From assembly GCF_003991155.1 (NCBI RefSeq), contig NZ_CP031295.1: a DNA stretch of 64,000 nt. The stretch is one strand, 5' to 3'. The notes beneath the pieces were generated by a model. The model did no database searches and had not been told where the DNA came from. It worked only from the letters and a program-made list of their open reading frames with translations. Numbering within the stretch: position 1 is the first letter of the stretch; each line of letters starts with the position of its first letter. This DNA is from Escherichia coli (lineage in GTDB: Bacteria; Pseudomonadota; Gammaproteobacteria; Enterobacterales; Enterobacteriaceae). Both the position numbers and the translations under genes were made by a program. Shown here piece by piece: positions 3,886 to 60,735 of the stretch.

Positions 3886-3957
3886 CCGGTATTCCTTTAC
3901 AACAAAGGTACGCTGATATCAACATGGCCGCTGACAGCCAAGTTGATATCATATAAT

Positions 3958-4018
3958 ACACGACATAATCTGTAGTCAGGGAGGATAGACTCTTTACTGA
4001 CTACAGATTATGTCGTGT
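3958..4018. repeat. perfect 22-bp inverted repeat (arms 3958-3979 and 3997-4018, 17-bp spacer) downstream of iutA
   Basis: read directly: acacgacataatctgtagtcag ... ctgactacagattatgtcgtgt; a second 10-bp inverted repeat tgatatcaac/gttgatatca lies at 3914-3951. Confidence 0.8.
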
Positions 4019-4369
4019 TCCGTGCTCATTTCCTCAAAAAAATACAAGAAAAGAATTAGTATTCTAACAAAAAGTGAAATAAATTGTATCAAACTCCCTC
4101 TTTTAATCCTGTTGAGTAAATCAGCTTTTGCAATAGGATTGAAAGAGTGTAAGTGGAATCTCTTCCGGATACTCGTTACCACCGTGGCTAGAATATCTAC
4201 GGCTGCGGGCCAGTAATAGATTAAGTGATAACAGCTGTCTGGAAATGTAGGGGCGTATCCACTAATCATAATCATTGTGAGATAAATATTACGGGGCATT
4301 TTATAATGAATAAAGGTGATGCTGCCAACTTACTGATTTAGTGTATGATGGTGTTTTTGAGGTGCTCCA

Positions 4370-4645
4370 GTGGCTTCTGTTTCTATCAGCTGTCCCTCCT
4401 GTTCAGCTACTGACGGGGTGGTGCGTAACGGCAAAAGCACCGCCGGACATCAGCGCTATCTCTGCTCTCACTGCCGTAAAACATGGCAACTGCAGTTCAC
4501 TTACACCGCTTCTCAACCCGGTACGCACCAGAAAATCATTGATATGGCCATGAATGGCGTTGGATGCCGGGCAACTGCACGCATTATGGGCGTTAGCCTC
4601 AACACGATTTTACGTCACTTAAAAAACTCAGGCCGCAGTCGGTAA
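4370..4645 (+). CDS. insA: IS1 InsA
   Basis: 91 aa [17 protein letters not shown]... with zinc-finger-like CxxC pairs; starts at nt 56 of the element as in IS1. Confidence 0.9.
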
Positions 4646-4689
4646 CCTCGCGCATACAGCCGGGCAGTGACGTCATCGTCTGCGCGGAA

Positions 4690-5067
4690 ATGGACGAACA
4701 GTGGGGATACGTCGGGGCTAAATCGCGCCAGCGCTGGCTGTTTTACGCGTATGACAGGCTCCGGAAGACGGTTGTTGCGCACGTATTCGGTGAACGCACT
4801 ATGGCGACGCTGGGGCGTCTTATGAGCCTGCTGTCACCCTTTGACGTGGTGATATGGATGACGGATGGCTGGCCGCTGTATGAATCCCGCCTGAAGGGAA
4901 AGCTGCACGTAATCAGCAAGCGATATACGCAGCGAATTGAGCGGCATAACCTGAATCTGAGGCAGCACCTGGCACGGCTGGGACGGAAGTCGCTGTCGTT
5001 CTCAAAATCGGTGGAGCTGCATGACAAAGTCATCGGGCATTATCTGAACATAAAACACTATCAATAA
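4690..5067 (+). CDS. insB: IS1 InsB (made as InsAB' transposase by -1 frameshift from insA)
   Basis: 125 aa ORF in the -1 frame relative to insA, ending just inside the right IR. Confidence 0.85.
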
Positions 5068-5264
5068 GTTGGAGTCATTACCGCCTTGACCATCAGATAG
5101 TTATTTTGGTGCTAGGGATACTGAGTGTGAACAGTTAGCGCGCGTCCTCGCCAGTTAGCTCGCTACGCTCGGTTACACGACGGCTACGAGTACTAGTGAT
5201 AATTATTGACTGAGGTATGTGCTCTTCCTGTTTCCTTTTTTGATGTGTTGCTCTCATTTTAAAC

Positions 5265-5357
5265 AACTTTGCGGTTTTTTGACTACTTTGCAATTTTGTT
5301 GTTGCTTTGCAATAAAATGCAAGATTAAATGAAAATATGCAAAGCAATGATTAAAGG
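5265..5357 (+). promoter_or_regulatory. sopA promoter/operator region
   Basis: AT-rich stretch upstream of sopA with repeated CTTTGC/GCAAAG hexamers (ctttgcaat, gctttgcaat, gcaaagcaat); F SopA autorepresses via such repeats. Confidence 0.5.
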
Positions 5358-6533
5358 ATGTTCAGAATGAGACTCATGGAAACACTTAACCAGTGCATAA
5401 ACGCTGGTCATGAAATGACGAAGGCTATCGCCATTGCACAGTTTAATGATGACAGCCCGGAAGCGAGGAAAATCACCCGACGCTGGAGAATAGGTGAAGC
5501 AGCGGATTTAGTTGGAGTATCTTCTCAGGCTATCAGGGATGCCGAGAAAGCAGGCCGGCTACCGCACCCGGATATGGAAATACGAGGACGGGTTGAGCAA
5601 CGTGTTGGTTATACAATTGAACAAATTAATCATATGCGTGACGTGTTTGGTACGAGACTACGACGTGCTGAAGACGTATTTCCGCCGGTGATTGGAGTTG
5701 CTGCTCATAAAGGGGGCGTTTACAAAACCTCTGTTTCTGTTCATCTTGCTCAGGATCTGGCTCTGAAGGGATTACGTGTTCTGCTCGTGGAAGGTAACGA
5801 CCCCCAGGGAACAGCATCGATGTATCACGGCTGGGTGCCAGATCTTCATATTCATGCAGAGGATACTCTCCTTCCCTTCTATCTTGGGGAAAAGGACGAT
5901 GTCACTTATGCAATAAAGCCTACTTGCTGGCCTGGGCTTGACATTATTCCTTCCTGTTTGGCTCTGCACCGCATTGAAACTGAGCTAATGGGCAAATTTG
6001 ATGAAGGTAAATTGCCCACCGATCCACACCTGATGCTCCGACTGGCCATTGAAACCGTCGCTCATGACTATGATGTCATTGTCATTGACAGCGCGCCTAA
6101 CCTAGGTATCGGCACGATTAATGTTGTATGTGCTGCTGATGTGTTGATTGTCCCCACGCCTGCTGAGTTGTTCGACTACACTTCCGCTCTGCAGTTTTTC
6201 GATATGCTTCGTGATCTGCTCAAAAACGTAGATCTTAAAGGATTCGAGCCTGATGTACGTATTTTGCTTACCAAATACAGTAATAGTAATGGTTCTCAGT
6301 CCCCGTGGATGGAGGAGCAAATTCGGGACGCCTGGGGAAGCATGGTCCTAAAAAATGTTGTGCGTGAAACGGATGAAGTTGGTAAAGGTCAGATCCGGAT
6401 GAGAACTGTTTTTGAACAGGCTATTGATCAACGCTCTTCAACAGGTGCCTGGAGAAATGCCCTTTCTATTTGGGAACCTGTCTGCAATGAAATTTTCGAT
6501 CGTTTGATTAAACCACGCTGGGAGATTAGATAA
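5358..6533 (+). CDS. sopA: plasmid partition ATPase SopA (ParA family, F type)
   Basis: 391 aa ORF; deviant Walker A KGGVYKTS; matches F SopA as I remember it. Confidence 0.95.
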
Positions 6534-7504
6534 TGAAGCGTGCGCCTGTCATTCCAAAACATACGATTAAGACTCAACCGCTTGAAGATACTCCGTCATC
6601 GGCACCAGCTGCACCGATGGTGGATTCGTTAATTGCGCGCGTAGGAGCTATGGCTCGTGGCAATGCTATTACTTTGCCTGTATGTGGTAGGGACGTGAAA
6701 TTTACCCTTGAGGTGCTCCGGGGAGATAGTGTTGAGAAGACCTCTCGGGTATGGTCAGGTAATGAACGTGACCAGGAACTGCTTACCGAAGACGCCCTGG
6801 ATGATCTTATCCCTTCTTTTCTACTGACAGGTCAGCAGACACCAGCATTCGGTCGAAGAGTGTCTGGGGTCATAGAAATTGCCGATGGGAGCCGCCGTCG
6901 TAAAGCTGCTGCACTTACAGAAAGTGATTATCGAGTTCTGGTTGGTGAGCTGGATGATGAGCAGATGGCTGCATTGTCCAGATTGGGTAACGATTATAGG
7001 CCAACAAGTGCTTATGAACGTGGTCAGCGTTATGCAAGCCGATTGCAGAATGAATTTGCTGGAAATATTTCTGCGCTGGCTGATGCAGAAAATATTTCAC
7101 GTAAGATTATTACCCGCTGTATCAACACAGCTAAACTGCCTAAATCAGTTGTTGCTCTTTTTTCTCATCCCGGTGAACTATCTGCCCGGTCAGGTGATGC
7201 ACTTCAAAGAGCTTTTACAGATAAAGAAGAATTACTTAAGCAGCAGGCATCTAACCTTCACGAGCAGAAAAAAGCAGGAGTGATATTTGAAGCTGAAGAA
7301 GTCATCACTCTTTTAACGTCTGTGCTTAAAACGTCATCTGCCTCAAGAACTAGCTTAAGCTCACGACATCAGTTTGCTCCTGGAGCGACAGTGTTGTACA
7401 AGGGCGATAAAATGGTGTTAAACCTAGATAGATCTCGTATTCCAACTGAGTGTATAGAGAGAATTGAAGCCATTCTTAAGGAACTTGAAAAAGCGGCACT
7501 TTGA
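6533..7504 (+). CDS. sopB: plasmid partition protein SopB (ParB family, F type)
   Basis: 323 aa ORF overlapping the sopA stop; matches F SopB; followed by sopC repeats. Confidence 0.95.
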
Positions 7505-18718: not shown

Positions 18719-20145
18719 TGGCCAGTATCAATACCATTGTGAAACGCAAGCAGTACCTGTGGCTGGGGATTGTGGTTGTCGGTACAGCCTCCGCGATTGG
18801 TGGGGCACTGTATCTGTCTGATGTGGACATGTCCGGTAACGGTGAAACCGTGGCTGAACAGGAGCCTGTGCCGGATATGACCGGTGTGGTGGATACGACC
18901 TTTGATGACAAGGTGCGTCAGCATGCCACCACCGAGATGCAGGTGACGGCAGCGCAGATGCAGAAGCAGTATGAGGAAATCCGTCGTGAGCTGGATGTTC
19001 TGAACAAACAGCGCGGTGATGACCAGCGTCGTATTGAAAAGTTGGGACAGGACAATGCCGCCCTGGCAGAGCAGGTAAAAGCCCTGGGTGCTAATCCCGT
19101 CACGGCGACCGGTGAGCCTGTACCGCAGATGCCTGCCTCACCGCCCGGCCCGGAAGGCGAACCACAGCCAGGAAACACCCCCGTATCCTTCCCGCCGCAG
19201 GGCAGCGTTGCTGTTCCACCGCCGACGGCGTTTTATCCCGGGAATGGTGTCACGCCACCACCACAGGTGACGTACCAGTCTGTGCCGGTGCCTAACCGGA
19301 TACAGCGTAAGGTGTTTACCCGTAATGAGGGAAAACAGGGACCATCACTGCCGTACATTCCGTCAGGAAGTTTTGCGAAAGCCATGCTGATTGAAGGGGC
19401 GGATGCCAATGCCTCTGTCACCGGTAATGAATCCACGGTGCCGATGCAGCTGCGTATCACCGGCCTGGTGGAAATGCCGAACAGCAAGACGTATGACGCA
19501 ACGGGATGTTTTGTTGGTCTGGAAGCCTGGGGGGATGTGTCCAGTGAGCGTGCCATTGTACGTACCCGCAATATCAGCTGCCTGAAGGACGGCAAAACTA
19601 TTGATATGCCGATTAAGGGGCATGTCAGCTTCCGGGGTAAAAACGGTATCAAGGGCGAAGTGGTGATGCGTAACGGCAAAATCCTCGGCTGGGCATGGGG
19701 CGCGGGATTTGTTGACGGTATCGGTCAGGGAATGGAGCGCGCCTCCCAGCCGGCTGTCGGGCTGGGTGCCACTGCTGCTTACGGGGCCGGCGATGTCCTT
19801 AAAATGGGTATCGGTGGCGGCGCATCGAAAGCCGCACAGACGCTCAGTGACTACTACATCAAACGTGCCGAACAGTATCACCCGGTGATACCGATTGGTG
19901 CGGGCAACGAAGTGACCGTGGTGTTCCAGGACGGCTTCCAGCTGAAAACCGTGGAAGAGATGGCGCTGGAACGCACGCAGAGCAGAGCGGAAGAAGACAA
20001 TCCGGAAAGTCCGGTTCCTGTTCCGCCATCAGCTGAAAGTCATCTTAACGGCTTTAATACTGACCAGATGCTGAAGCAGCTGGGCAACCTGAATCCGCAG
20101 CAGTTTATGTCCGGCAGTCAGGGAGGGGGCAATGATGGCAAATAA
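18718..20145 (+). CDS. traB: TraB T4SS channel protein
   Basis: 475 aa; coiled-coil then Pro-rich region then VirB10-like domain. Confidence 0.9.
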   Translation: MASINTIVKRKQYLWLGIVVVGTASAIGGALYLSDVDMSGNGETVAEQEPVPDMTGVVDTTFDDKVRQHATTEMQVTAAQMQKQYEEIRRELDVLNKQRGDDQRRIEKLGQDNAALAEQVKALGANPVTATGEPVPQMPASPPGPEGEPQPGNTPVSFPPQGSVAVPPPTAFYPGNGVTPPPQVTYQSVPVPNRIQRKVFTRNEGKQGPSLPYIPSGSFAKAMLIEGADANASVTGNESTVPMQLRITGLVEMPNSKTYDATGCFVGLEAWGDVSSERAIVRTRNISCLKDGKTIDMPIKGHVSFRGKNGIKGEVVMRNGKILGWAWGAGFVDGIGQGMERASQPAVGLGATAAYGAGDVLKMGIGGGASKAAQTLSDYYIKRAEQYHPVIPIGAGNEVTVVFQDGFQLKTVEEMALERTQSRAEEDNPESPVPVPPSAESHLNGFNTDQMLKQLGNLNPQQFMSGSQGGGNDGK

Positions 20146-29497: not shown

Positions 29498-30233
29498 AGC
29501 ATTACTGCCACTGTTACTCTGCTGCTTTATTTTTCCGGCGTCAGGAAAAGATGCAGGCTGGCAGTGGTATAACGAGAAAATAAATCCGAAGGAAAAAGAA
29601 AATAAACCAGTACCTGCAGCCCCCCGTCAGGAGCCGGACATTATGCAGAAACTGGCCGCACTGCAGACGGCAACAAAGCGGGCGCTGTACGAAGCTATTC
29701 TGTATCCCGGCGTGGATAATTTTGTGAAATATTTCCGGCTGCAGAATTACTGGACTCAGCAGGCCGGGCTTTTCACCATGAGCGCCAAAAAAGCCATGCT
29801 GGCGCATCCCGAACTGGACTATAACCTGCAGTACAGCCATTACAACGGCACGGTCCGGAACCAGCTGGCGGCAGACCAGGTGCAGCAGCGACAGGCCATT
29901 GCGAAACTGGCTGAACACTACGGCATCATGTTCTTTTACCGGGGGCAGGACCCCATCGACGGGCAGCTGGCGCAGGTCATTAATGGCTTCAGGAATACCT
30001 ATGGTCTGAGTGTTATTCCCGTTTCCGTGGATGGCGTGATTAATCCGCTGTTGCCGGATTCCCGGACTGACCAGGGGCAGGCGCAGCGCCTCGGCGTGAA
30101 ATATTTCCCGGCCATGATGCTGGTTGACCCGAAACAGGGCAGTGTTCGTCCGTTATCATACGGTTTTATTTCGCAGGACGACCTGGCAAAACAGTTCCTG
30201 AACGTTTCTGAAGATTTTAAACCGAACTTCTGA
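29490..30233 (+). CDS. traF: TraF pilus assembly protein (thioredoxin-like fold)
   Basis: 247 aa from MNKALLPLLLCCFIFPASG (signal peptide). Confidence 0.9.
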   Translation: MNKALLPLLLCCFIFPASGKDAGWQWYNEKINPKEKENKPVPAAPRQEPDIMQKLAALQTATKRALYEAILYPGVDNFVKYFRLQNYWTQQAGLFTMSAKKAMLAHPELDYNLQYSHYNGTVRNQLAADQVQQRQAIAKLAEHYGIMFFYRGQDPIDGQLAQVINGFRNTYGLSVIPVSVDGVINPLLPDSRTDQGQAQRLGVKYFPAMMLVDPKQGSVRPLSYGFISQDDLAKQFLNVSEDFKPNF

Positions 30234-39387: not shown

Positions 39388-42300
39388 TGATGAGTATCGC
39401 GCAGGTCAGATCGGCCGGAAGTGCCGGTAACTATTATACCGACAAGGATAATTACTATGTGCTGGGCAGCATGGGAGAACGCTGGGCCGGCAGGGGGGCT
39501 GAACAGCTGGGACTGCAGGGCAGTGTCGATAAGGATGTTTTTACCCGTCTTCTGGAGGGAAGGCTGCCGGACGGAGCGGATCTAAGCCGCATGCAGGATG
39601 GCAGTAATAAGCATCGTCCCGGCTACGACCTGACCTTCTCCGCCCCCAAAAGTGTCTCCATGATGGCCATGTTAGGTGGCGATAAGCGCCTGATTGATGC
39701 ACATAACCAGGCCGTGGACTTTGCTGTTCGTCAGGTGGAGGCGCTGGCCTCCACACGGGTTATGACGGACGGACAGTCAGAAACGGTGCTGACCGGTAAT
39801 CTGGTGATGGCACTGTTTAACCACGACACCAGTCGCGATCAGGAACCACAGCTACACACGCATACGGTGGTGGCTAATGTCACGCAGCATAACGGCGAAT
39901 GGAAGACACTGAGCAGTGACAAAGTGGGGAAAACGGGGTTCATTGAGAATGTGTACGCTAATCAGATTGCCTTTGGCAGGCTCTACCGGGAAAAACTGAA
40001 AGAGCAGGTTGAGGCGCTGGGCTATGAAACCGAAGTGGTGGGTAAGCACGGTATGTGGGAGATGCCGGGCGTACCGGTGGAGGCCTTTTCCGGACGCTCA
40101 CAGGCTATCCGGGAGGCCGTCGGGGAAGATGCCTCGCTGAAATCCCGGGATGTGGCGGCACTGGATACGCGAAAATCCAAACAGCACGTCGATCCTGAAG
40201 TCAGAATGGCTGAATGGATGCAGACGCTGAAGGAAACCGGGTTCGACATCCGGGCATATCGTGACGCGGCGGATCAGCGTGCGGAGACCCGCACGCAGGC
40301 GCCCGGGGCTGTTTCACAGGAGGGGCCGGATGTGCAGCAGGCGGTGACACAGGCGATTGCCGGATTAAGTGAACGAAAAGTGCAGTTTACGTACACGGAC
40401 GTGCTGGCCAGAACGGTCGGTATACTGCCGCCGGAAAATGGTGTGATTGAACGGGCACGCGCCGGTATCGATGAGGCCATCAGTCGTGAGCAGCTTATCC
40501 CCCTCGATCGTGAGAAGGGGCTGTTCACATCAGGAATTCATGTGCTCGATGAGCTGTCCGTCCGGGCACTCAGTCGTGACATCATGAAACAGAACCGGGT
40601 GACCGTACATCCGGAGAAAAGTGTCCCCCGGACGGCTGGTTACAGCGATGCGGTCAGTGTTCTGGCACAGGACCGTCCGTCGCTGGCCATTGTGTCCGGG
40701 CAGGGCGGTGCAGCCGGGCAGCGTGAGCGGGTGGCTGAACTGGTCATGATGGCCCGGGAGCAGGGGCGGGAAGTGCAGATTATCGCTGCTGACCGTCGCT
40801 CGCAGATGAACCTGAAGCAGGATGAACGGCTGTCCGGTGAGCTGATAACCGGACGTCGTCAGCTGCTGGAAGGCATGGCTTTCACGCCGGGCAGTACCGT
40901 TATCGTTGACCAGGGCGAAAAACTCTCCCTGAAAGAGACATTAACCCTGCTGGACGGTGCCGCACGTCATAACGTACAGGTCCTGATAACCGACAGTGGG
41001 CAGCGAACCGGTACAGGCAGTGCGCTGATGGCCATGAAGGATGCCGGGGTGAACTCATATCGCTGGCAGGGGGGAGAACAGCGACCGGCCACCATCATCA
41101 GTGAACCGGACCGTAATGTCCGCTATGCCCGGCTGGCCGGAGATTTTGCGGCCAGCGTGAAAGCCGGAGAAGAGAGCGTGGCACAGGTCAGCGGAGTACG
41201 GGAACAGGCCATACTGACACAGGCCATTCGCAGTGAGCTGAAAACACAGGGCGTGCTCGGACACCCGGAGGTAACCATGACCGCCCTGTCACCGGTCTGG
41301 CTGGACAGCCGGAGCCGTTACCTGCGGGATATGTACCGCCCGGGGATGGTGATGGAGCAGTGGAACCCGGAGACACGCAGTCATGACCGCTATGTGATAG
41401 ACCGGGTGACGGCGCAGAGTCACAGCCTGACCCTGCGGGATGCGCAGGGTGAAACGCAGGTGGTGCGTATTTCTTCTCTGGACAGCAGCTGGTCGCTGTT
41501 CCGGCCGGAGAAAATGCCGGTGGCAGACGGCGAGCGTCTGAGGGTGACAGGGAAAATTCCCGGACTCCGCGTCTCCGGCGGTGACCGCCTGCAGGTGACA
41601 TCCGTCAGTGAAGATGCGATGACGGTTGTTGTGCCGGGACGTGCTGAACCGGCCTCCCTGCCTGTGGCTGATTCACCGTTCACGGCACTGAAGCTGGAGA
41701 ACGGCTGGGTGGAAACGCCCGGGCATTCCGTCAGCGACAGTGCGACGGTTTTTGCCTCCGTCACACAGATGGCAATGGACAACGCCACCCTGAACGGTCT
41801 GGCCCGCAGCGGTCGTGATGTCCGGCTGTATTCATCGCTGGATGAAACCCGTACTGCGGAAAAACTTGCCCGCCATCCCTCCTTTACGGTGGTTTCTGAG
41901 CAGATAAAGGCGCGTGCCGGTGAGATATTGCTGGAAACCGCTATCAGTCTGCAGAAAGCAGGGCTTCACACGCCGGCACAGCAGGCCATTCATCTGGCCC
42001 TTCCTGTGCTGGAAAGTAAAAACCTGGCCTTCAGCATGGTGGACCTGCTGACAGAGGCGAAGTCGTTTGCTGCAGAAGGAACCAGTTTTACTGACCTGGG
42101 AGGGGAAATCAATGCGCAGATAAAACGCGGTGATTTACTGTATGTGGATGTGGCAAAAGGCTATGGCACAGGCCTGCTGGTTTCCCGTGCGTCGTATGAG
42201 GCTGAAAAAAGCATTCTTCGCCATATTCTCGAAGGTAAGGAGGCGGTCACGCCGCTGATGGAGAGAGTACCTGGCGAACTCATGGAGAAACTGACATCAG

Positions 42301-44657
42301 GACAGCGCGCCGCCACCCGCATGATACTGGAAACGTCCGACCGTTTCACGGTGGTGCAGGGCTATGCCGGTGTGGGGAAGACCACACAGTTCCGGGCGGT
42401 GATGTCAGCCGTGAACATGCTGCCGGAGAGTGGGCGTCCCCGTGTCGTGGGGCTGGGTCCCACGCACCGCGCGGTCGGGGAGATGCGCAGCGCCGGCGTG
42501 GATGCACAGACACTGGCGTCATTTCTGCATGACACGCAGCTGCAGCAGCGCAGCGGAGAAACACCGGATTTCAGCAACACGCTGTTCCTGCTCGATGAGA
42601 GCTCAATGGTGGGCAATACCGACATGGCACGGGCATACGCCCTGATTGCGGCCGGTGGTGGTCGTGCCGTGGCCAGCGGTGACACGGACCAGCTGCAGGC
42701 CATCGCGCCCGGTCAGCCTTTCCGTCTCCAGCAGACGCGCAGTGCTGCCGATGTGGCTATCATGAAAGAGATTGTGCGTCAGACGCCGGAACTGCGGGAG
42801 GCGGTATACAGCCTGATTAACCGGGATGTGGAAAGGGCATTGTCCGGGCTTGAGAGTGTGAAACCGTCTCAGGTGCCTCGTCAGGAGGGCGCATGGGCAC
42901 CGGAGCACTCTGTGACGGAGTTCAGTCACAGCCAGGAAGCGAAACTGGCAGAAGCGCAGCAGAAGGCGATGCTGAAAGGCGAGGCTTTCCCGGATGTCCC
43001 CATGACACTGTATGAAGCCATTGTCCGCGACTATACCGGCAGAACACCGGAAGCACGGGAGCAGACGCTGATTGTCACGCACCTGAATGAGGACCGGCGC
43101 GTACTGAACAGCATGATTCATGATGCACGGGAAAAGGCCGGTGAGCTGGGGAAAGAGCAGGTCATGGTGCCTGTCCTGAACACAGCGAATATACGCGACG
43201 GAGAGCTGCGTCGTCTCTCCACCTGGGAGACACATCGGGACGCACTTGTCCTGGTGGATAATGTGTATCACCGGATTGCCGGTATCAGTAAGGATGACGG
43301 GCTGATAACCCTGCAGGATGCGGAAGGTAACACGCGGCTGATTTCGCCCCGGGAGGCGGTGGCTGAAGGCGTCACACTGTACACCCCGGACACCATCCGG
43401 GTAGGGGCCGGTGACCGGATGCGCTTCACGAAGAGTGACCGGGAGCGTGGTTATGTGGCCAACAGCGTCTGGACGGTGACAGCGGTTTCCGGTGACAGTG
43501 TCACGCTGTCGGGCAGACAGCAGACCCGGGTGATTCGCCCCGCCCAGGAGCGGGCAGAGCAACATATTGACCTGGCCTATGCCATCACCGCTCACGGTGC
43601 GCAGGGGGCAAGTGAAACCTTTGCCATCGCGCTTGAAGGTACGGAAGGCAGCCGGAAACTGATGGCTGGCTTTGAGTCAGCCTACGTGGCCCTGTCGCGT
43701 ATGAAGCAGCATGTGCAGGTGTACACCGATAACCGTCAGGGCTGGACGGATGCCATTAACAATGCCGTACAGAAAGGAACAGCCCACGATGTGTTTGAAC
43801 CGAAACCGGACCGGGAGGTCATGAATGCAGAGCGGCTGTTCAGTACGGCGCGGGAGCTGCGGGACGTGGCGGCAGGGCGTGCCGTTCTTCGTCAGGCGGG
43901 GCTTGCCGGGGGAGACAGTCCTGCACGGTTTATTGCTCCGGGACGTAAATATCCACAGCCGTATGTGGCACTGCCGGCGTTTGACCGTAACGGCAAGTCT
44001 GCCGGTATCTGGCTGAACCCGCTGACCACGGATGACGGAAACGGGCTGCGGGGATTCAGTGGTGAAGGCCGTGTGAAAGGCAGCGGGGATGCGCAGTTCG
44101 TGGCCCTGCAGGGCAGCCGTAACGGCGAGAGCCTGCTGGCTGATAATATGCAGGATGGTGTCCGGATTGCCCGTGATAACCCCGACAGCGGTGTGGTGGT
44201 GAGAATCGCCGGTGAAGGTCGTCCGTGGAATCCCGGTGCCATCACCGGTGGCCGCGTGTGGGGGGATATCCCGGACAACAGCGTCCAGCCGGGAGCCGGA
44301 AATGGCGAGCCGGTCACGGCAGAGGTACTGGCACAGCGGCAGGCTGAAGAGGCCATCCGCCGTGAAACGGTACGCCGCGCAGATGAAATTGTCCGTAAAA
44401 TGGCAGAGAACAAACCTGACCTGCCGGACAGCAAAACAGAGCAGGCTGTCAGGGAGATTGCCGGGCAGGAGCGTGACCGGTCTGCCATATCTGAACGGGA
44501 AGCCGCGCTGCCGGAGAGTGTGCTGCGTGAATCACAACGGGAGCGGGAAGCTGTCAGGGAAATTGCCCGGGAAAATCTGCTGCAGGAGCGTCTGCAGCAG
44601 ATGGAACGGGATATGGTTCGTGACCTGCAGAAAGAGAAAACCCTGGGCGGAGACTGA
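39387..44657 (+). CDS. traI: TraI relaxase-helicase
   Basis: 1756 aa; N-terminal relaxase with catalytic tyrosines (..GNYYTDKDNYYVLG..) and HTH..H motif, central and C-terminal helicase domains (GYAGVGKT Walker A). Confidence 0.95.
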   Translation: MMSIAQVRSAGSAGNYYTDKDNYYVLGSMGERWAGRGAEQLGLQGSVDKDVFTRLLEGRLPDGADLSRMQDGSNKHRPGYDLTFSAPKSVSMMAMLGGDKRLIDAHNQAVDFAVRQVEALASTRVMTDGQSETVLTGNLVMALFNHDTSRDQEPQLHTHTVVANVTQHNGEWKTLSSDKVGKTGFIENVYANQIAFGRLYREKLKEQVEALGYETEVVGKHGMWEMPGVPVEAFSGRSQAIREAVGEDASLKSRDVAALDTRKSKQHVDPEVRMAEWMQTLKETGFDIRAYRDAADQRAETRTQAPGAVSQEGPDVQQAVTQAIAGLSERKVQFTYTDVLARTVGILPPENGVIERARAGIDEAISREQLIPLDREKGLFTSGIHVLDELSVRALSRDIMKQNRVTVHPEKSVPRTAGYSDAVSVLAQDRPSLAIVSGQGGAAGQRERVAELVMMAREQGREVQIIAADRRSQMNLKQDERLSGELITGRRQLLEGMAFTPGSTVIVDQGEKLSLKETLTLLDGAARHNVQVLITDSGQRTGTGSALMAMKDAGVNSYRWQGGEQRPATIISEPDRNVRYARLAGDFAASVKAGEESVAQVSGVREQAILTQAIRSELKTQGVLGHPEVTMTALSPVWLDSRSRYLRDMYRPGMVMEQWNPETRSHDRYVIDRVTAQSHSLTLRDAQGETQVVRISSLDSSWSLFRPEKMPVADGERLRVTGKIPGLRVSGGDRLQVTSVSEDAMTVVVPGRAEPASLPVADSPFTALKLENGWVETPGHSVSDSATVFASVTQMAMDNATLNGLARSGRDVRLYSSLDETRTAEKLARHPSFTVVSEQIKARAGEILLETAISLQKAGLHTPAQQAIHLALPVLESKNLAFSMVDLLTEAKSFAAEGTSFTDLGGEINAQIKRGDLLYVDVAKGYGTGLLVSRASYEAEKSILRHILEGKEAVTPLMERVPGELMEKLTSGQRAATRMILETSDRFTVVQGYAGVGKTTQFRAVMSAVNMLPESGRPRVVGLGPTHRAVGEMRSAGVDAQTLASFLHDTQLQQRSGETPDFSNTLFLLDESSMVGNTDMARAYALIAAGGGRAVASGDTDQLQAIAPGQPFRLQQTRSAADVAIMKEIVRQTPELREAVYSLINRDVERALSGLESVKPSQVPRQEGAWAPEHSVTEFSHSQEAKLAEAQQKAMLKGEAFPDVPMTLYEAIVRDYTGRTPEAREQTLIVTHLNEDRRVLNSMIHDAREKAGELGKEQVMVPVLNTANIRDGELRRLSTWETHRDALVLVDNVYHRIAGISKDDGLITLQDAEGNTRLISPREAVAEGVTLYTPDTIRVGAGDRMRFTKSDRERGYVANSVWTVTAVSGDSVTLSGRQQTRVIRPAQERAEQHIDLAYAITAHGAQGASETFAIALEGTEGSRKLMAGFESAYVALSRMKQHVQVYTDNRQGWTDAINNAVQKGTAHDVFEPKPDREVMNAERLFSTARELRDVAAGRAVLRQAGLAGGDSPARFIAPGRKYPQPYVALPAFDRNGKSAGIWLNPLTTDDGNGLRGFSGEGRVKGSGDAQFVALQGSRNGESLLADNMQDGVRIARDNPDSGVVVRIAGEGRPWNPGAITGGRVWGDIPDNSVQPGAGNGEPVTAEVLAQRQAEEAIRRETVRRADEIVRKMAENKPDLPDSKTEQAVREIAGQERDRSAISEREAALPESVLRESQREREAVREIARENLLQERLQQMERDMVRDLQKEKTLGGD

Positions 44658-57024: not shown

Positions 57025-57248
57025 CTACCTCTCACTAGTGAGGGGCGGCAGCGCATCAAGCGGTGAGCGCACTCCGGCACCGCCAACTTTCAGCACATGC
57101 GTGTAAATCATCGTCGTAGAGACGTCGGAATGGCCGAGCAGATCCTGCACGGTTCGAATGTCGTAACCGCTGCGGAGCAAGGCCGTCGCGAACGAGTGGC
57201 GGAGGGTGTGCGGTGTGGCGGGCTTCGTGATGCCTGCTTGTTCTACGG
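57025..57248 (-). pseudogene. intI1: intI1 (class 1 integron integrase) 3' fragment, truncated by IS26
   Basis: minus-strand translation ...[68 protein letters not shown] is a tyrosine-recombinase C-terminus with the catalytic Tyr; the upstream part is replaced by IS26 at 57249. Confidence 0.8.
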
Positions 57249-58068
57249 GGCACTGTTGCAAATAGTCGGTGGTGATAAACTTATCATCCCCTTTTGCTGA
57301 TGGAGCTGCACATGAACCCATTCAAAGGCCGGCATTTTCAGCGTGACATCATTCTGTGGGCCGTACGCTGGTACTGCAAATACGGCATCAGTTACCGTGA
57401 GCTGCAGGAGATGCTGGCTGAACGCGGAGTGAATGTCGATCACTCCACGATTTACCGCTGGGTTCAGCGTTATGCGCCTGAAATGGAAAAACGGCTGCGC
57501 TGGTACTGGCGTAACCCTTCCGATCTTTGCCCGTGGCACATGGATGAAACCTACGTGAAGGTCAATGGCCGCTGGGCGTATCTGTACCGGGCCGTCGACA
57601 GCCGGGGCCGCACTGTCGATTTTTATCTCTCCTCCCGTCGTAACAGCAAAGCTGCATACCGGTTTCTGGGTAAAATCCTCAACAACGTGAAGAAGTGGCA
57701 GATCCCGCGATTCATCAACACGGATAAAGCGCCCGCCTATGGTCGCGCGCTTGCTCTGCTCAAACGCGAAGGCCGGTGCCCGTCTGACGTTGAACACCGA
57801 CAGATTAAGTACCGGAACAACGTGATTGAATGCGATCATGGCAAACTGAAACGGATAATCGGCGCCACGCTGGGATTTAAATCCATGAAGACGGCTTACG
57901 CCACCATCAAAGGTATTGAGGTGATGCGTGCACTACGCAAAGGCCAGGCCTCAGCATTTTATTATGGTGATCCCCTGGGCGAAATGCGCCTGGTAAGCAG
58001 AGTTTTTGAAATGTAAGGCCTTTGAATAAGACAAAAGGCTGCCTCATCGCTAACTTTGCAACAGTGCC
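57249..58068 (+). mobile_element. IS26 (820 bp)
   Basis: 14-bp terminal IRs GGCACTGTTGCAAA at 57249-57262 and TTTGCAACAGTGCC at 58055-58068. Confidence 0.9.
57312..58016 (+). CDS. tnpA: IS26 transposase
   Basis: 234 aa from [21 protein letters not shown]... Confidence 0.9.
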
Positions 58069-58090
58069 TTTTCATACAACGGAGGGGGTT

Positions 58091-58477
58091 ATGAATAAAC
58101 CAGCAGATCTGAAACCCCGCAACTTATCGGCTGCTGTCAGATTGCGCCTAAATGAAATCGAGAACTGGCTGGACAGAGGGCTAACGCGGCATGAAATTGC
58201 TGAAATCCTCGACAGCGAATACAGCTTTTCGGTAACAGCCAAAGGGCTTGAGATGGCACTGTATAGAACGCGGCAAAACCGAAAAAATGTATTGCACAAT
58301 ACGCATGATAAGAGTAGCGCGAAGGGTGCAGCGGAAAGTGTATTGCACAATACACAACCGTCTGAGCCTGAAGTGCAGGAAAGTAAAAAAGCAGAGAGTC
58401 CCGGCATTATTGATAAAGAATTCTTCAAGAAAATCGGTGAGAATTTCGACCCTAAGAAGTTCAACAAAAAATTCTGA
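58091..58477 (+). CDS. hypothetical protein (128 aa) with possible N-terminal helix-turn-helix
   Basis: first ATG outside IS26 (MNKPADLKPRNL...); segment RGLTRHEIAEIL resembles an HTH; contains two copies of the near-palindrome TGTATTGCACAATAC (about 58279 and 58332); family not recognised. Confidence 0.4.
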   Translation: MNKPADLKPRNLSAAVRLRLNEIENWLDRGLTRHEIAEILDSEYSFSVTAKGLEMALYRTRQNRKNVLHNTHDKSSAKGAAESVLHNTQPSEPEVQESKKAESPGIIDKEFFKKIGENFDPKKFNKKF

Positions 58478-58560
58478 GGTGATTTATGAAAGTAGCGGTA
58501 ATTAATTACAGTGGCAGTGTTCGTAAAACCTTAATTTCATCTTACCTGTTAGCCCCGCGC

Positions 58561-59617
58561 GGCTTTGTTGAATAAATCAGATTTCGGGTAAGTCTCCCCC
58601 GTAGCGGGTTGTGTTTTCAGGCAATACGCACGCTTTCAGGCATACCTGCTTTCGTCATTTTGTTCAGCGCTCGTACCAGGGCCATAGCCTCTGCAACCTG
58701 ACCATCGTAGTCACGCAGTATCAGTGAACCTCCGAACAGCTGTTTTACCCGGTACATCGCCGTTTCCGCTATCGAGCGACGGTTGTAATCTGTTGTCCAT
58801 TTCCACCGCGCATTACTCCCGGTCAGCCGCTGATTCGCAACAGCACGGTTACGGTCTGCATATTCACCGGGCCAGTAACCCGCGCCTTTTCGGGGCGGGA
58901 TAAGCGCGCTGATTTTCTTACGCCGCAGTTCATCGTGACAGAGTTGGGTGTCGTAAGCGCCGTCTGCCGATGCTGCCCTGATTTTTCTGTGAGTCTGCCG
59001 GATAAGACCCGGGAAGGCTTCTGAGTCCGTCACATTGTTCAGCGACAGGTTTGCACAGATGATTTCATGTGTGTTGCTGTCAACTGCCAGATGCAACTTT
59101 CGCCATATACGACGGCGTTCCTGGCCATGCTTTTTGACTTTCCATTCGCCTTCACCAAAGACCTTCAGCCCGGTGGAATCAATCACCAGATGCGCGATTT
59201 CACCCCGGGTGAACGTTTTGAAACTGACATTAACCGACTTTGCGCGCCTGCTGACACTGGTGTAATCCGGGCAGCGCAACGGAACATTCATCAGTGTAAA
59301 AATGGAATCAATAAAACCCTGTGCAGCCCGCAGGGTCAACCTGAACACGCGTTTAATGACCAGAACGGTGGTGATGGCGAGATCAGAATAGCGCTGAGGT
59401 CTTCCCCGTGATGAAGGCGTTGCCGACTCATACCAGGCCTGAATAGCTTCATCATCCAGCCAGAAAGTTATGGAGCCACGGTTGATGAGGGCTTTATTGT
59501 AGGTGGGCCAGTTGGTTATTTTGAACTTTTGCTTTGCCACGGAACGGTCTGCGTTGTCGGGAAGATGCGTGATCTGATCCTTCAACTCAGCAAAAGTTCG
59601 ATTTATTCAACAAAGCC
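58561..59617 (-). mobile_element. IS903-like insertion sequence (IS5 family, 1057 bp)
   Basis: 18-bp terminal IRs GGCTTTGTTGAATAAATC at 58561-58578 and inverted at 59600-59617; flanking 9 bp differ. Confidence 0.8.
58617..59585 (-). CDS. IS903-like transposase (DDE)
   Basis: 322 aa ORF filling the element; recognised as the IS903/IS102 transposase family from memory; true start may be an internal Met. Confidence 0.8.
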   Translation of the reverse strand: MKDQITHLPDNADRSVAKQKFKITNWPTYNKALINRGSITFWLDDEAIQAWYESATPSSRGRPQRYSDLAITTVLVIKRVFRLTLRAAQGFIDSIFTLMNVPLRCPDYTSVSRRAKSVNVSFKTFTRGEIAHLVIDSTGLKVFGEGEWKVKKHGQERRRIWRKLHLAVDSNTHEIICANLSLNNVTDSEAFPGLIRQTHRKIRAASADGAYDTQLCHDELRRKKISALIPPRKGAGYWPGEYADRNRAVANQRLTGSNARWKWTTDYNRRSIAETAMYRVKQLFGGSLILRDYDGQVAEAMALVRALNKMTKAGMPESVRIA

Positions 59618-59989
59618 GTCTGTGTTGTAAAATGGCGCCGAAAGCCCGGCGTAGCCGGTTGCCGGGCTATAAATTCTGCCACCCTACCCCCTGCCCTGAT
59701 TAGCCTTAACTCGCGAACAGCAATGAAGAAGTCAAAGTAATCCCTTTTAACCCCGGTGAGCGGGCTTTACGGCGTTTACGACGTAAAGGGCGTGATTTCC
59801 GGGGCCTAAGCGGCGGCAGCTTGCTGCTGACGCTTAGGGGGATGTTCATCAACTATTTCAGCGACACCAGGGAACTTAACACGGTAGCTGCAAAGCCCTA
59901 ATCCCGCTCACCGCCACGCAGCTGCCGTACGTCCCCCACGGGGGTGCGCAGTGCTGCGCGCGGGAACGGCGGCCCGTCTGCGGGACGCG

Positions 59990-60735
59990 GCGCCGTACTG
60001 CGCGTTAGCGGCCGCACGCGGCCGGTTAACCGTATTGCACGCAAGCTAAATGTGCTGGGCATAAAAACCGCGCTCGATCTGGCTCTGACGAACCCGGCCT
60101 TCATCCGCAAAAATTTTTCTGTCGTCCTTGAGCGAACGGTACGGGAACTGAACGGGGAAAGCTGCCTTTCGCTTGAGGAAGCCCCTCCGACGAAACAGCA
60201 AATTGTCTGCAGCCGCAGTTTTGGCGTGAAGATCACGGAGTACGAGTCACTCCGTCAGGCTATCTGTCAGCACGCAGAGCGGGCCTCTGAAAAACTGCGT
60301 AAAGAGCACCAGTATTGCCGGCATATTTCCGTTTTCATCAAAACGTCTCCGTTCGCCATTAAAGAGCCTTACTACGGCAACGTGGCTACGGAAAAACTTC
60401 TTACACCCACTCAGGACACCAGGGACATCATTGCAGCCGCTACAACGGCTCTGGAGCGTATCTGGAGGGATGGGCACCGGTATGCCAAAGCCGGAGTTAT
60501 GCTGAATGACTTCACCGGCTCCGGAGTTTCGCAGCTGCAACTGTTCGACGAACGCCCGCCACGCCCTCACAGTGCTGAGCTGATGAGGGTTCTGGACGGG
60601 ATCAACAACTCAGGGCTGGGTAAAGTATGGTTTGCGGGGCGGGGTATGGCCCCGGAATGGCAGATGAAACGGGAGATGCTTTCTCCTGCTTATACGACAC
60701 GATGGTCAGATATTCCTGCAGCGAAACTGGCGTGA
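59990..60735 (+). pseudogene. umuC: umuC-like (Y-family DNA polymerase V catalytic subunit), C-terminal fragment
   Basis: translation ...NRIARKLNVLGIKTALDLALTNPAFIRKNFSVVLERTVRELNGESCLSLEE...LSPAYTTRWSDIPAAKLA aligns with the C-terminal half of UmuC/MucB; no N-terminal half and no umuD upstream. Confidence 0.7.

What the first reader, a model, noticed from the sequence alone, without database searches (positions are those of the whole stretch)
58069..58560. Orphan interval between IS26 and IS903: uncharacterised HTH-like ORF with internal palindromic repeats, and a gene start cut off by IS903
The 492 bp between the two IS elements encode a 128-aa ORF (58091-58477) with an HTH-like segment RGLTRHEIAEIL and a Lys-rich tail. 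Inside it, the near-palindrome TGTATTGCACAATAC occurs twice about 53 bp apart, which could be operator sites embedded in or overlapping the gene. Directly after it a new ORF begins (58487, MKVAVINYSGSVRKTLISSYLLAP...) and is cut after about 24 codons by the IS903 end at 58561. Both are of unknown family and may be relics of a regulatory or maintenance locus.
Basis: seen in the sequence. Interest (0 to 1): 0.45.

Follow-up and report, generated by a model that had tools for sequence, protein, structure and literature searches.

The report
Truncated stbA plasmid-stability relic with palindromes
The interval is a well-known leftover of an IncN-type plasmid stability operon (a complete stbA gene and the first 25 codons of stbB) trapped between IS26 and IS903, and the two palindromes inside stbA are conserved DNA sites that, in intact plasmids, also sit at the promoter of a neighbouring SprT-like protease gene.

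Summary
The "unknown family" reading is wrong.

**What the genes are**
- ORF 58091-58477 is StbA. It passes the NCBIfam equivalog model, and its N-terminal helix-turn-helix is homologous to R388 StbA (PDB 7PC1).
- 58486-58560 is the first 25 codons of StbB, carrying a Walker-A G13R change.
- IS26 cuts 22 bp upstream of stbA. This removes the promoter, the 11-bp direct-repeat stbDR centromere and oriT.
- IS903 removes the rest of stbB and stbC.
- The identical relic is annotated in more than 800 plasmids, mostly IncR-type. It is an ordinary, known, decaying remnant.

**The palindromes**
The two palindromes (58288-58303 and 58339-58354) are more than a peptide repeat.
- Their synonymous sites are frozen across StbA homologues of 30-40% identity.
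- Their sequence variants match sites upstream of the SprT-like (mpr) gene of the same plasmid.
- In Pseudomonas and Vibrio plasmids the same palindrome lies inside stbA in other reading frames.
- In 79 of 92 loci from diverse bacteria the palindrome sits within 300 nt upstream of the SprT-like gene.
- Its base pair 3/14 tracks one residue of that protein (Glu with G:C 23/23, Gln with T:A 15/15).

I infer an operator bound by the SprT-like protein. In this window the sites are orphaned.

The parts
57249..58068 (+). IS26 (820 bp; tnpA 57312-58016 on the + strand, reading towards stbA). Its right end replaces everything upstream of position -22 of stbA.
   Evidence: Terminal inverted repeats located. 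ORF. The same IS26/stbA junction is present in L015.
58069..58090 (+). The last 22 bp of the native stbA leader, including the GGAGG ribosome-binding site (58081-58085). The native promoter, stbDR repeats and oriT are missing.
   Evidence: Comparison with pKPS77 (L001 4476-5022) and the intact IncN locus L009. No promoter-like site in 57200-58650. No ACTACA 11-bp array anywhere in the window.
58091..58477 (+). stbA, complete (128 aa). It has an N-terminal HTH DNA-binding domain, a low-complexity linker and a conserved Lys-rich C-terminal tail.
   Evidence: NCBIfam NF041290 StbA_2: 204 bits against a cut-off of 100, E 7.8e-61. 100% identical to WP_001039464.1, annotated stbA, in many plasmids.
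58103..58276 (+). The part of stbA encoding the HTH domain (about residues 5-62; it includes RGLTRHEIAEIL and the LYRTR motif).
   Evidence: A profile of 7 IncN-type StbA proteins matches PDB 7PC1 (R388 StbA residues 1-75), E 2.1e-5, profile positions 5-62 to chain residues 12-69.
58288..58303 (.). Palindrome copy 1, TGTATTGCACAATACG (one arm mismatch; codons GTA TTG CAC AAT ACG = VLHNT).
58339..58354 (.). Palindrome copy 2, TGTATTGCACAATACA (perfect 7-bp arms, 8 bp with the flanking G/C). It is identical to the sites inside R46 stbA and upstream of R46 mpr.
58486..58560 (+). The 5' end of stbB (25 codons of about 238; ParA-like ATPase). It is a pseudogene fragment whose Walker-A glycine is changed to Arg (G13R, GGT to CGT).
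   Evidence: NF041292 StbB profile positions 1-25, E 1.5e-8. Comparison with five intact StbB proteins, all with G at residue 13.
58561..59617 (-). IS903B-type IS5-family element (1057 bp) that truncates stbB. The flanks show no 9-bp target duplication.
   Evidence: Inverted repeats and flanks. Transposase ORF. Annotation of the identical element.
59944..60735 (+). The 3' part of a umuC/mucB-like polymerase V gene of the IncR backbone. It abuts the other side of IS903 and is not part of the stb relic.
   Evidence: Pfam IMS_C and DUF4113. 56% identical to R46 MucB residues 188-420. Followed by parB/parA and the IncR rep gene in the identical plasmid segment L015.

Best explanation
**What is shown**
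- The interval is a dead-end fragment of the stbABC operon of an IncN-type conjugative plasmid, now resident in an IncR-type backbone.
- stbA is intact. It encodes the small HTH protein that, in intact plasmids, binds arrays of 11-bp-spaced direct repeats (stbDR) next to oriT. There it drives plasmid segregation, represses its own and other promoters, and restrains conjugation.
- IS26 has removed the promoter, the stbDR arrays and oriT.
- IS903 has removed stbB beyond codon 25, plus stbC.
- The stbB stump has a broken P-loop.
- The two 16-bp palindromes in the linker-coding part of stbA are conserved as DNA, not as peptide.
- They belong to a palindrome family, TG(T/G)ATTG-NN-CAAT(A/C)CA. In intact plasmids of many bacterial groups this family lies immediately upstream of the SprT-like metalloprotease gene mpr, which normally follows stbC. 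Extra copies lie inside stbA.

**What is inferred**
- The relic cannot work as a segregation or conjugation-control module.
- At most, StbA is made at low level by read-through from the IS26 transposase gene.
- The palindromes are operators bound by a dimeric, plasmid-encoded protein. The most likely binder is the SprT-like protein itself, because one of its residues switches with base pair 3/14 of the site.
- In this window the sites have no cognate gene and are functionless passengers.
For: **Identity of the genes**
- NCBIfam StbA_2 above its cut-off, and the StbB N-terminus.
- PDB 7PC1 profile match.
- 98% DNA identity to the intact traK-stbA-stbB-stbC locus of IncN plasmid pEC656_KPC.

**Truncations**
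-.

**Ubiquity of the relic**
- 873 plasmid records at 99% identity or more.
- The same IS903 junction in IncR plasmids.
- The literature lists 'delta-IS903B, stbA, IS903B' in an IncR plasmid (PMC11792461).

**StbA biology**
- PMC3098194 and bioRxiv 10.1101/2022.04.29.490116.

**DNA-level selection on the palindromes**
- The codons are identical in every copy across homologues of 30-40% identity. Codon identity at conserved residues elsewhere is only 31-48% (Fisher p 2e-4 and 1e-3).
- The V-to-G and T-to-P changes are mirror-image complementary base changes that keep the palindrome.
- The same variant is found upstream of mpr in the same plasmid.
- The palindrome lies inside stbA in other reading frames: VDCAIQ, VDCTNH and VSYDT.
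- A StbA homologue on a small Col plasmid has no palindrome.

**Link to the SprT-like gene**
- 79 of 92 loci have a site within 300 nt upstream (my estimate of the chance expectation is about 3). Glu goes with G:C in 23/23 loci and Gln with T:A in 15/15. The two classes are interleaved at least 5 times on the protein tree.
- In several promoters the sites flank a -10 box.
- The modelled protein (pLDDT 89) has a SPRTN-like, DNA-dependent protease fold.
- The window has no SprT-like gene.
Against: - No experiment shows binding. The binder is inferred from co-variation only.
- Proteins with Asp at the co-varying position carry either site type (31 T:A, 6 G:C, 4 mixed). That residue therefore cannot be the sole determinant.
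- A co-inherited unidentified protein, or an RNA-level role, is not excluded. The sites can form hairpins, although weak ones (-2.5 and -9.6 kcal/mol in the window).
- R46 ArdK boxes (TACTTGTATTGAC) share TGTATTG with the palindrome. Some cross-talk with ArdK is possible in IncN1 plasmids.
- Whether stbA is transcribed in this plasmid is not known.
- Older subscription papers on pKM101 (Delver & Belogurov 1997; Paterson et al. 1999) could not be read and may already mention the repeats.
Confidence: 0.85

Rival explanations
1. The repeats are only a duplicated peptide motif (S/N)VLHNT(Q/H) in the disordered linker of StbA, made by slippage. The palindromic look is a coincidence of the codons.
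For: Copy number varies from 1 to 3 between close relatives, as expected for slippage. The motif is in frame and lies in the poorly conserved C-terminal half. The R388 StbA C-terminal half is unstructured.
Against: The same 16-mer occurs in intergenic DNA upstream of mpr and after the stb operon. Synonymous positions are frozen. The amino-acid changes are mirror-complementary at the DNA level. The palindrome lies in other reading frames in Pseudomonas and Vibrio stbA. It is absent from a Col-plasmid StbA homologue.
Confidence: 0.03
2. The palindromes act as RNA (or transferred single-strand DNA) hairpins. They would affect mRNA stability, translation of mpr or stbB/C, or early events on the incoming strand, rather than serving as double-strand operators.
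For: The compensatory changes also preserve a hairpin. The last site upstream of mpr usually lies 0-20 nt 5' of the Shine-Dalgarno. The stb region is in the leading region, which enters recipients single-stranded. Paired sites upstream of mpr fold strongly (-22.6 kcal/mol, z -7.2).
Against: A structural hairpin does not need the same sequence at every site of a plasmid, nor a protein residue that tracks one base pair. The central G/C pair next to a 2-nt centre is conserved although it could not pair in a hairpin. Single hairpins are weak: copy 1 in the window is -2.5 kcal/mol, no better than shuffles. Sites occur in both orientations relative to transcription. Sites flank -10 boxes like classical operators. 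There is no Rfam match.
Confidence: 0.1
3. The palindromes are operators, but the binder is not the SprT-like protein. It is another plasmid regulator (ArdK/TrfB-like, KorA, TraK, OrfD, or a small neighbouring protein) or a host factor.
For: The R46 ArdK box shares TGTATTG. ArdK-family proteins can bind inverted repeats (PMC9723621). TrfB-related genes are present in all IncN-like plasmids examined. SprT-family proteases are not known as sequence-specific repressors.
Against: ArdK-type promoters of the G:C-type plasmids carry GATACTAAAAGTTGAC and no GGATTG. KorA is missing from RCS25_p and OrfD from the G:C clade. StbC is a coiled coil with a membrane anchor. IncX3, MOBP, Acinetobacter, Brevundimonas and Desulfovibrio-group elements share only the SprT-like gene next to the site. 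Both site types occur in the same host genera, which argues against a host factor. The Glu/Gln residue in the SprT-like protein co-varies with the site.
Confidence: 0.3
4. StbA itself binds the internal palindromes, giving auto-regulation through operators inside its own gene.
For: StbA is a DNA-binding repressor. The sites lie in its gene.
Against: StbA-family sites are head-to-tail direct repeats with 11-bp period: TTGCATCAT in R388, TACATCA in R46 and ACTACA in the window's type. Three different N-terminal domain types carry the same palindrome type, and similar N-terminal types carry different palindrome types. Plasmids without stbA (IncX3, Acinetobacter, Brevundimonas) have the site upstream of the SprT-like gene.
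Confidence: 0.03
5. The relic is not inert. StbA expressed from IS26 read-through acts in trans on co-resident IncN plasmids that carry ACTACA-type stbDRs (lowering their transfer or disturbing their segregation). Or the palindromes titrate the SprT-like protein of such plasmids. Either effect could explain why the fragment persists in IncR plasmids.
For: stbA is intact in more than 800 copies, while the stbB stump has decayed. R388 StbA acts in trans and inhibits conjugation about 50-fold. There is no + strand terminator between IS26 tnpA and stbA.
Against: The identical copies may simply reflect recent clonal spread of one IS-bounded segment (100% DNA identity). No promoter is detectable. 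Variants that have lost a repeat unit exist (L004).
Confidence: 0.15

Closest known systems
stbABC operon of IncN plasmids R46/pKM101 and IncW plasmid R388 (StbA binding stbDR repeats next to oriT)
   Same: Same gene family and order (stbA then stbB). The HTH domain is homologous to R388 StbA (7PC1). Relatives of the window's stbA have oriT and 11-bp-periodic direct repeats upstream.
   Different: Here the cis sites, promoter, most of stbB and all of stbC are gone. The repeat unit of this StbA type (ACTACA) differs from R46 (TACATCA) and R388 (TTGCATCAT). R46 StbA is only 50% identical and has three palindromes, not two.
IS903B-bounded stbA segment of IncR plasmids (pKPS77, pK245, p12-6919.2; 'delta-IS903B, stbA, IS903B' in PMC11792461)
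   Same: 100% identical DNA, including the stbB/IS903 junction and the IS903/umuC-side junction.
   Different: Those plasmids keep about 550 bp upstream (oriT plus stbDR arrays) bounded by a second IS903B. In the window, IS26 has deleted all of that.
Operators or centromere sites embedded in coding DNA: KorB O_B sites of IncP-1 plasmids, and parS inside spo0J (from my own knowledge, not tested here)
   Same: Short palindromes recognised by a plasmid or chromosome protein, tolerated inside genes and repeated at several loci of one replicon.
   Different: No ParB/KorB homologue is involved. The sites cluster in the linker of stbA and at the mpr promoter. The inferred binder is a protease-family protein.
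SPRTN/Wss1-type SprT-domain DNA-dependent metalloproteases
   Same: The modelled R46 Mpr matches the human SPRTN SprT domain solved with DNA (6MDX/6MDW; Foldseek E 2.4e-4). It has the HExxH motif and a C-terminal zinc ribbon.
   Different: SPRTN binds DNA without sequence specificity and is not a repressor. The plasmid proteins appear tied to a specific 16-bp palindrome at their own promoter. This is an inference.
ArdK/KorA (TrfB-family) regulon of IncN/IncW leading regions (CUP elements)
   Same: A repeated short operator controls leading-region genes on the same plasmids. The R46 ArdK box TACTTGTATTGAC shares 7 nt with the palindrome arm.
   Different: ArdK boxes are direct repeats overlapping the -35 box. 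They are not found at mpr or in stbA, and they do not co-vary with the palindrome type.

Membership tests
StbA (IncN-type, NCBIfam NF041290 StbA_2) | Scores above the curated cut-off of the family model over its full length | tested here: met
   204.1 bits against a cut-off of 100, E 7.8e-61, profile positions 1-123 of 123.
StbA (IncN-type, NCBIfam NF041290 StbA_2) | N-terminal HTH DNA-binding domain homologous to R388 StbA residues 1-75 | tested here: met
   A family profile hits PDB 7PC1 at E 2.1e-5 over 58 residues. The single sequence alone does not reach it.
StbA (IncN-type, NCBIfam NF041290 StbA_2) | First gene of an stbA-stbB-stbC operon | tested here: met
   stbB starts 9 nt after the stbA stop. 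The full operon is present in L009 at 98% DNA identity. In the window the operon is cut after codon 25 of stbB.
StbA (IncN-type, NCBIfam NF041290 StbA_2) | Arrays of 11-bp-spaced direct repeats (stbDR) and oriT upstream of the gene | tested here: not met
   Only 22 bp of native upstream DNA remain, and no ACTACA array exists in the window. The repeats are present in relatives (pKPS77: 2.7 and 8.7 copies, period 11). This is loss by IS26, not evidence against family membership.
StbA (IncN-type, NCBIfam NF041290 StbA_2) | Specific binding to stbDR, segregation and repression activity | not testable with these tools
   Known for R388 StbA only.
StbB (ParA-like ATPase, NF041292) | Full-length protein of about 235 aa matching the family model | tested here: not met
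   Only residues 1-25 are present (34 bits against a cut-off of 200). It is a gene fragment.
StbB (ParA-like ATPase, NF041292) | Deviant Walker A motif NYSGSVGKT | tested here: not met
   The window and pKPS77 have NYSGSVRKT. All five intact homologues have G at that position.
IS26 (IS6 family) | 820 bp, 14-bp terminal inverted repeats, single transposase gene | tested here: met
   57249-58068. Inverted repeats found. 234-aa transposase ORF.
IS903 (IS5 family) | 1057 bp, 18-bp terminal inverted repeats, transposase; 9-bp target duplication on simple insertion | tested here: inconclusive
   Length, inverted repeats and transposase are met. The flanks GCCCCGCGC and GTCTGTGTT are not a duplication, so the present junctions arose by deletion or recombination.
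Palindrome family upstream of plasmid SprT-like (mpr) genes (defined here; not a published family) | 16-bp dyad TG(T/G)(A/T)T(T/C)G-NN-C(A/G)A(A/T)(A/C)CA | tested here: met
   Copy 2 matches exactly and copy 1 has one mismatch.
Palindrome family upstream of plasmid SprT-like (mpr) genes (defined here; not a published family) | Further copies at the promoter of a SprT-like gene on the same replicon | tested here: not met
   No SprT-like gene and no other site in the 64-kb window. The rest of the replicon was not available.
Palindrome family upstream of plasmid SprT-like (mpr) genes (defined here; not a published family) | Bound by a specific protein | not testable with these tools
   Only co-variation evidence is available.

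The most novel reading that the evidence does not exclude
The two palindromes are orphan copies of a widespread, apparently undescribed operator.
- It is a 16-bp dyad that sits at the promoter of plasmid and ICE SprT-like (Mpr) metalloprotease genes. It occurs across Alpha-, Beta- and Gammaproteobacteria and Desulfovibrio-group elements.
- The dyad is duplicated inside the neighbouring stbA gene in whichever reading frame is tolerated.
- The SprT-like protein would itself be the sequence-specific binder. Glu or Gln at R46 Mpr residue 130 would read base pair 3/14.
- That would make it a sequence-specific, DNA-tethered member of the SPRTN protease family that autoregulates and is parked on the stb segregation/conjugation-control locus.
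Probability: 0.5. Interest if true: 0.65.

Novelty: already known. Interest (0 to 1): 0.35.

Why it matters
As a locus, it matters little. It is a common IS-bounded scar that annotators already label stbA. It is useful mainly as a marker of the IncR lineage and of IS26/IS903 reshuffling.

The palindromes are the part worth keeping. If the inference holds, they give a testable handle on two open points of plasmid biology:
- what the conserved leading-region SprT-like protease Mpr does and how it is controlled;
- why it is genetically coupled to the StbA/StbB switch between vertical stability and conjugation.

A sequence-specific DNA-binding SprT-family protease would also be new for that enzyme family.

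Tried and rejected
- **Pfam.** It gave nothing significant for the 128-aa ORF (Clr5 at 15 bits, below cut-off).
- **PDB with the single sequence.** phmmer gave only a spurious bS20 match. A family profile was needed to reach 7PC1.
- **Rfam.** No match in 57900-58700.
- **Hybrid promoter.** IS26 -35 plus local -10 was considered by eye and with the scan. None was found.
- **LexA box.** Some sites read CTGT-N10-ACAG, but the spacing is 2 bp too long and G:C-type sites lack CTGT. Rejected by inspection and my own knowledge.
- **ArdK as binder.** The R46 ArdK box was recovered by searching R46 for matches to 13 nt I read at the dfrA/IS26 junction of pA56-1S. The coordinates that paper gives for its ArdK site did not correspond to that junction in the record I fetched. 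The G:C-type plasmids show no matching change in their ArdK-type promoters.
- **Other candidate binders.** StbC, OrfD, KorA and TraK were set aside on distribution or predicted topology.
- **Records not held.** R388 (BR000038) and AP018362 were not found under those accessions. PMC93686 (Paterson 1999) is not held.
- **Literature.** Searches for the 16-mer and for SprT-like/Mpr regulation found nothing relevant.
- **Failed look-up.** P0042 is not on record.
- **Loci without a site.** In L020 and L030 the SprT-like gene lies inside a longer operon. L020 has a site upstream of that operon; L030 showed none within the 1.5 kb examined. L024 has none directly upstream.
Full report
**1. Observation**

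The window holds one IS26 (57249-58068) and one IS903 (58561-59617), both with intact terminal inverted repeats. The 492 bp between them contain three things.
- An ATG-initiated 128-codon ORF at 58091-58477, preceded by GGAGG.
- A 22-nt direct repeat at 58284-58305 and 58335-58356, with 51-nt spacing. Its core is the near-palindrome TGTATTGCACAATAC(G/A).
- A second ORF starting at 58486. It runs 25 codons before the IS903 end.

Only small details differ: 51 nt rather than 53, a start at 58486 rather than 58487, and 25 codons rather than 24.

**2. Identity of the genes**

The ORF is StbA.
- It scores 204 bits against the NCBIfam equivalog StbA_2 (cut-off 100).
- The 25-codon stump matches positions 1-25 of the StbB model.
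- Pfam has no model for it.
- A profile of seven IncN-type StbA proteins matches the crystal structure of the R388 StbA DNA-binding domain (7PC1, E 2.1e-5).

The 492 bp are widespread.
- They are 100% identical in hundreds of plasmid records (873 at 99% or more). These are mainly Klebsiella and E. coli plasmids, and the ORF is annotated stbA.
- An intact version, traK-oriT-stbA-stbB-stbC, is present in IncN plasmid pEC656_KPC at 98% DNA identity.
- R46/pKM101 carries a 50%-identical StbA in the same operon.

From the literature, R388 StbA binds two sets of five 9-bp direct repeats spaced by 2 nt (stbDR) upstream of its gene. It is required for plasmid inheritance, represses several promoters and inhibits conjugation. 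StbB, a ParA-like ATPase with a deviant Walker A, counteracts that inhibition. The C-terminal half of StbA is unstructured and poorly conserved (PMC3098194; bioRxiv 10.1101/2022.04.29.490116; PMC3937220).

**3. What has been lost**

Upstream side:
- In IncR plasmid pKPS77, about 550 bp upstream of stbA carry an IncN/W-like oriT. They also carry two arrays of 11-bp-periodic repeats (units AAACTACAGAT and ACTACAAATAA), bounded by a second IS903B.
- In the window, IS26 abuts position -22 of stbA, so all of this is gone.
- No such array exists anywhere in the 64 kb.
- No promoter-like site is found upstream of stbA. There is also no + strand terminator between the co-oriented IS26 transposase gene and stbA. 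Read-through is therefore the only evident source of transcription, and this is an inference.

Downstream side:
- IS903 cuts stbB after codon 25.
- The stump carries G13R in the P-loop, whereas five intact StbB proteins have Gly.
- The IS903 flanks are not a 9-bp duplication.
- The same right-hand junction is shared with IncR plasmids.

Context:
- The DNA beyond IS903 is the IncR backbone: a umuC fragment, parB, parA and rep.
- The arrangement 'delta-IS903B, stbA, IS903B' is reported in the IncR literature (PMC11792461).

The locus is therefore a known, non-functional remnant.

**4. The palindromes are conserved as DNA**

Evidence within stbA homologues:
- IncN-type StbA proteins contain one to three copies of an xLHN(T/P) motif.
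- In every copy the codons are GTA TTG CAC AAT ACA, even in homologues only 33-40% identical.
- Among conserved residues elsewhere in these genes, only 31-48% use the same codon. Within the motif the figure is 95-100% (Fisher p 2e-4 and 1e-3 for two distant pairs).
- In a second clade (pConj58k, pMQB_Silv108.1, p2014AM-1331_1) the motif is GLHNP, encoded GGA TTG CAC AAT CCA. The two amino-acid changes are a T-to-G change in one arm and the complementary A-to-C change in the other.

Evidence outside stbA:
- The 16-mer also occurs after the last gene of the stb operon and 14-33 bp upstream of the SprT-like gene mpr (R46, RCS25_p). R46 has 9 strand-hits against 0.31 expected.
- In the second clade, where mpr directly follows stbC, the two sites upstream of mpr carry the same G:C variant as the stbA-internal sites.

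Evidence from other reading frames:
- A GC-rich Pseudomonas aeruginosa plasmid with traK-stbA-stbB-stbC-SprT synteny has TGGATTGCGCAATCCA inside a very different stbA. It is read as V-D-C-A-I-Q. Two more copies lie upstream of its SprT-like gene.
- A Vibrio plasmid has two sites in two different frames of one stbA-like gene.
- Pseudomonas elements with the third variant, TGTATCGTACGATACA, have it both inside stbA (V-S-Y-D-T) and upstream of the SprT-like gene.
- A StbA homologue on a small Col plasmid lacks the motif.

A peptide-repeat explanation is therefore excluded.

**5. What the palindromes belong to**

Distribution:
- Sites of the same family lie upstream of SprT-like genes, or of the operon that contains them, in many unrelated elements. 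These are IncX3, a MOBP E. coli plasmid, P. putida pLD209, and Acinetobacter, Brevundimonas, Burkholderia and Pseudodesulfovibrio elements.
- In several of these the sites flank a -10 box. The last site lies just 5' of the Shine-Dalgarno.

Large-scale test:
- A scan of one genome per species returned 80 more loci. Of 92 loci analysed in all, 79 have at least one site within 300 nt upstream of the gene. My estimate of the chance expectation is about 3.
- One conserved residue of the SprT-like protein tracks base pair 3/14 of the site. It lies in the motif PGGxxxG(Q/E/D)xM and is Gln130 in R46 Mpr.
- Glu goes with G:C in 23 of 23 loci and Gln with T:A in 15 of 15. Asp goes mostly with T:A (31) but also with G:C (6) or mixed sites (4).
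- The Gln and Glu classes are interleaved at least five times on a neighbour-joining tree.

Structure:
- The modelled R46 protein (pLDDT 89) has the fold of the human SPRTN protease domain solved with DNA (6MDX/6MDW). It also has a C-terminal zinc ribbon.

Other candidates:
- ArdK, KorA, OrfD, StbC, TraK, StbA and host factors fit the distribution or the co-variation less well.

I therefore infer that the palindrome is an operator and that the SprT-like protein is its most likely binder. This is not shown. I found no paper describing it in the searchable library. Two older pKM101 papers could not be read.

**6. Consequence for the window**

The window contains only the two stbA-internal sites and no SprT-like, stbC, ardK or IncN rep gene. 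Within these 64 kb the palindromes are orphan sites and stbA is an orphan gene.

Possible residual effects are speculative. They include trans action of StbA on a co-resident IncN plasmid and titration of a SprT-like protein.

**7. Verdict**

The finding is real, but its object is already known and ordinary: an IS-bounded stbA/delta-stbB relic. The sites are conserved DNA elements tied to the SprT-like gene of the parental plasmid type, not to the HTH protein that hosts them. That by-product is the only part of wider interest, and it needs experimental confirmation.

Noticed in passing
L003 (R46) 30004-30019; L014 32994-33037; L019 3433-3476; L023 3918-3986; L025 2469-2484; L026 1422-1481; L027 1430-1484; L031-L110: A 16-bp palindrome family lies within 300 nt upstream of plasmid/ICE SprT-like (Mpr) genes in 79 of 92 loci from many bacterial groups. 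Base pair 3/14 co-varies with one residue of the SprT-like protein (Glu with G:C 23/23, Gln with T:A 15/15). I found no description of this in the searchable literature.
   Followed up: yes
window 58522-58524 (codon 13 of the stbB stump): The Walker-A glycine is changed to arginine (GGT to CGT) in the truncated stbB of the window and of pKPS77. All intact homologues keep Gly. This is consistent with decay after truncation.
   Followed up: yes
L001 (pKPS77) 3419-6549; L002: In IncR plasmids the stbA relic still carries an IncN/W-type oriT and stbDR arrays. It is bracketed by two directly oriented IS903 copies, a composite-transposon-like unit without a 9-bp target duplication. This may explain why such plasmids are typed as mobilizable.
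   Followed up: partly
window 57025-57248, minus strand: An ORF fragment ending ...[39 protein letters not shown]... runs into the left end of IS26. It looks like the C-terminal part of an integron-type tyrosine recombinase cut by IS26. This is recognised from memory and was not tested.
   Followed up: no
window 39483-43520: A MobF-family relaxase homologue (22-36% identical to R46 MobF in two segments). This suggests the window also carries an F-like transfer region, in line with multi-replicon IncF/IncR relatives.
   Followed up: no
L003 (R46) 23301, 24642, 25852, 27870, 31240 (minus strand): Five copies of TACTTGTATTGAC next to -35 boxes in the CUP elements, presumably the ArdK boxes. A separate invariant CUP core, TGAGCTGCACAATCCA, is shared by R46 and RCS25_p and resembles half of the G:C-type palindrome.
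   Followed up: partly
L004 (pTKEC21-59-tetX-86kb) 1501-1836: A 111-aa StbA variant with a single, degenerate copy of the motif (GTA TTG TAC AAC ACA). It shows that copy number changes and that the palindrome decays in another relic.
   Followed up: partly
L019 4300-4315; L029 2293-2308; L024 22-37: Extra copies of the palindrome just downstream of the SprT-like gene in a Pseudomonas plasmid and a Burkholderia contig, and near a recX-like gene in an IncFII Klebsiella plasmid that has no site directly upstream of its SprT-like gene.
   Followed up: no
L022 (IncX3 pECO3183-2) 18896-18923: A 28-bp perfect palindrome, ATTATCTGTATCGTACGATACAGATAAT, lies upstream of a 59-aa ORF plus the SprT-like operon. 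It is the only site of the family on this 46-kb plasmid.
   Followed up: partly
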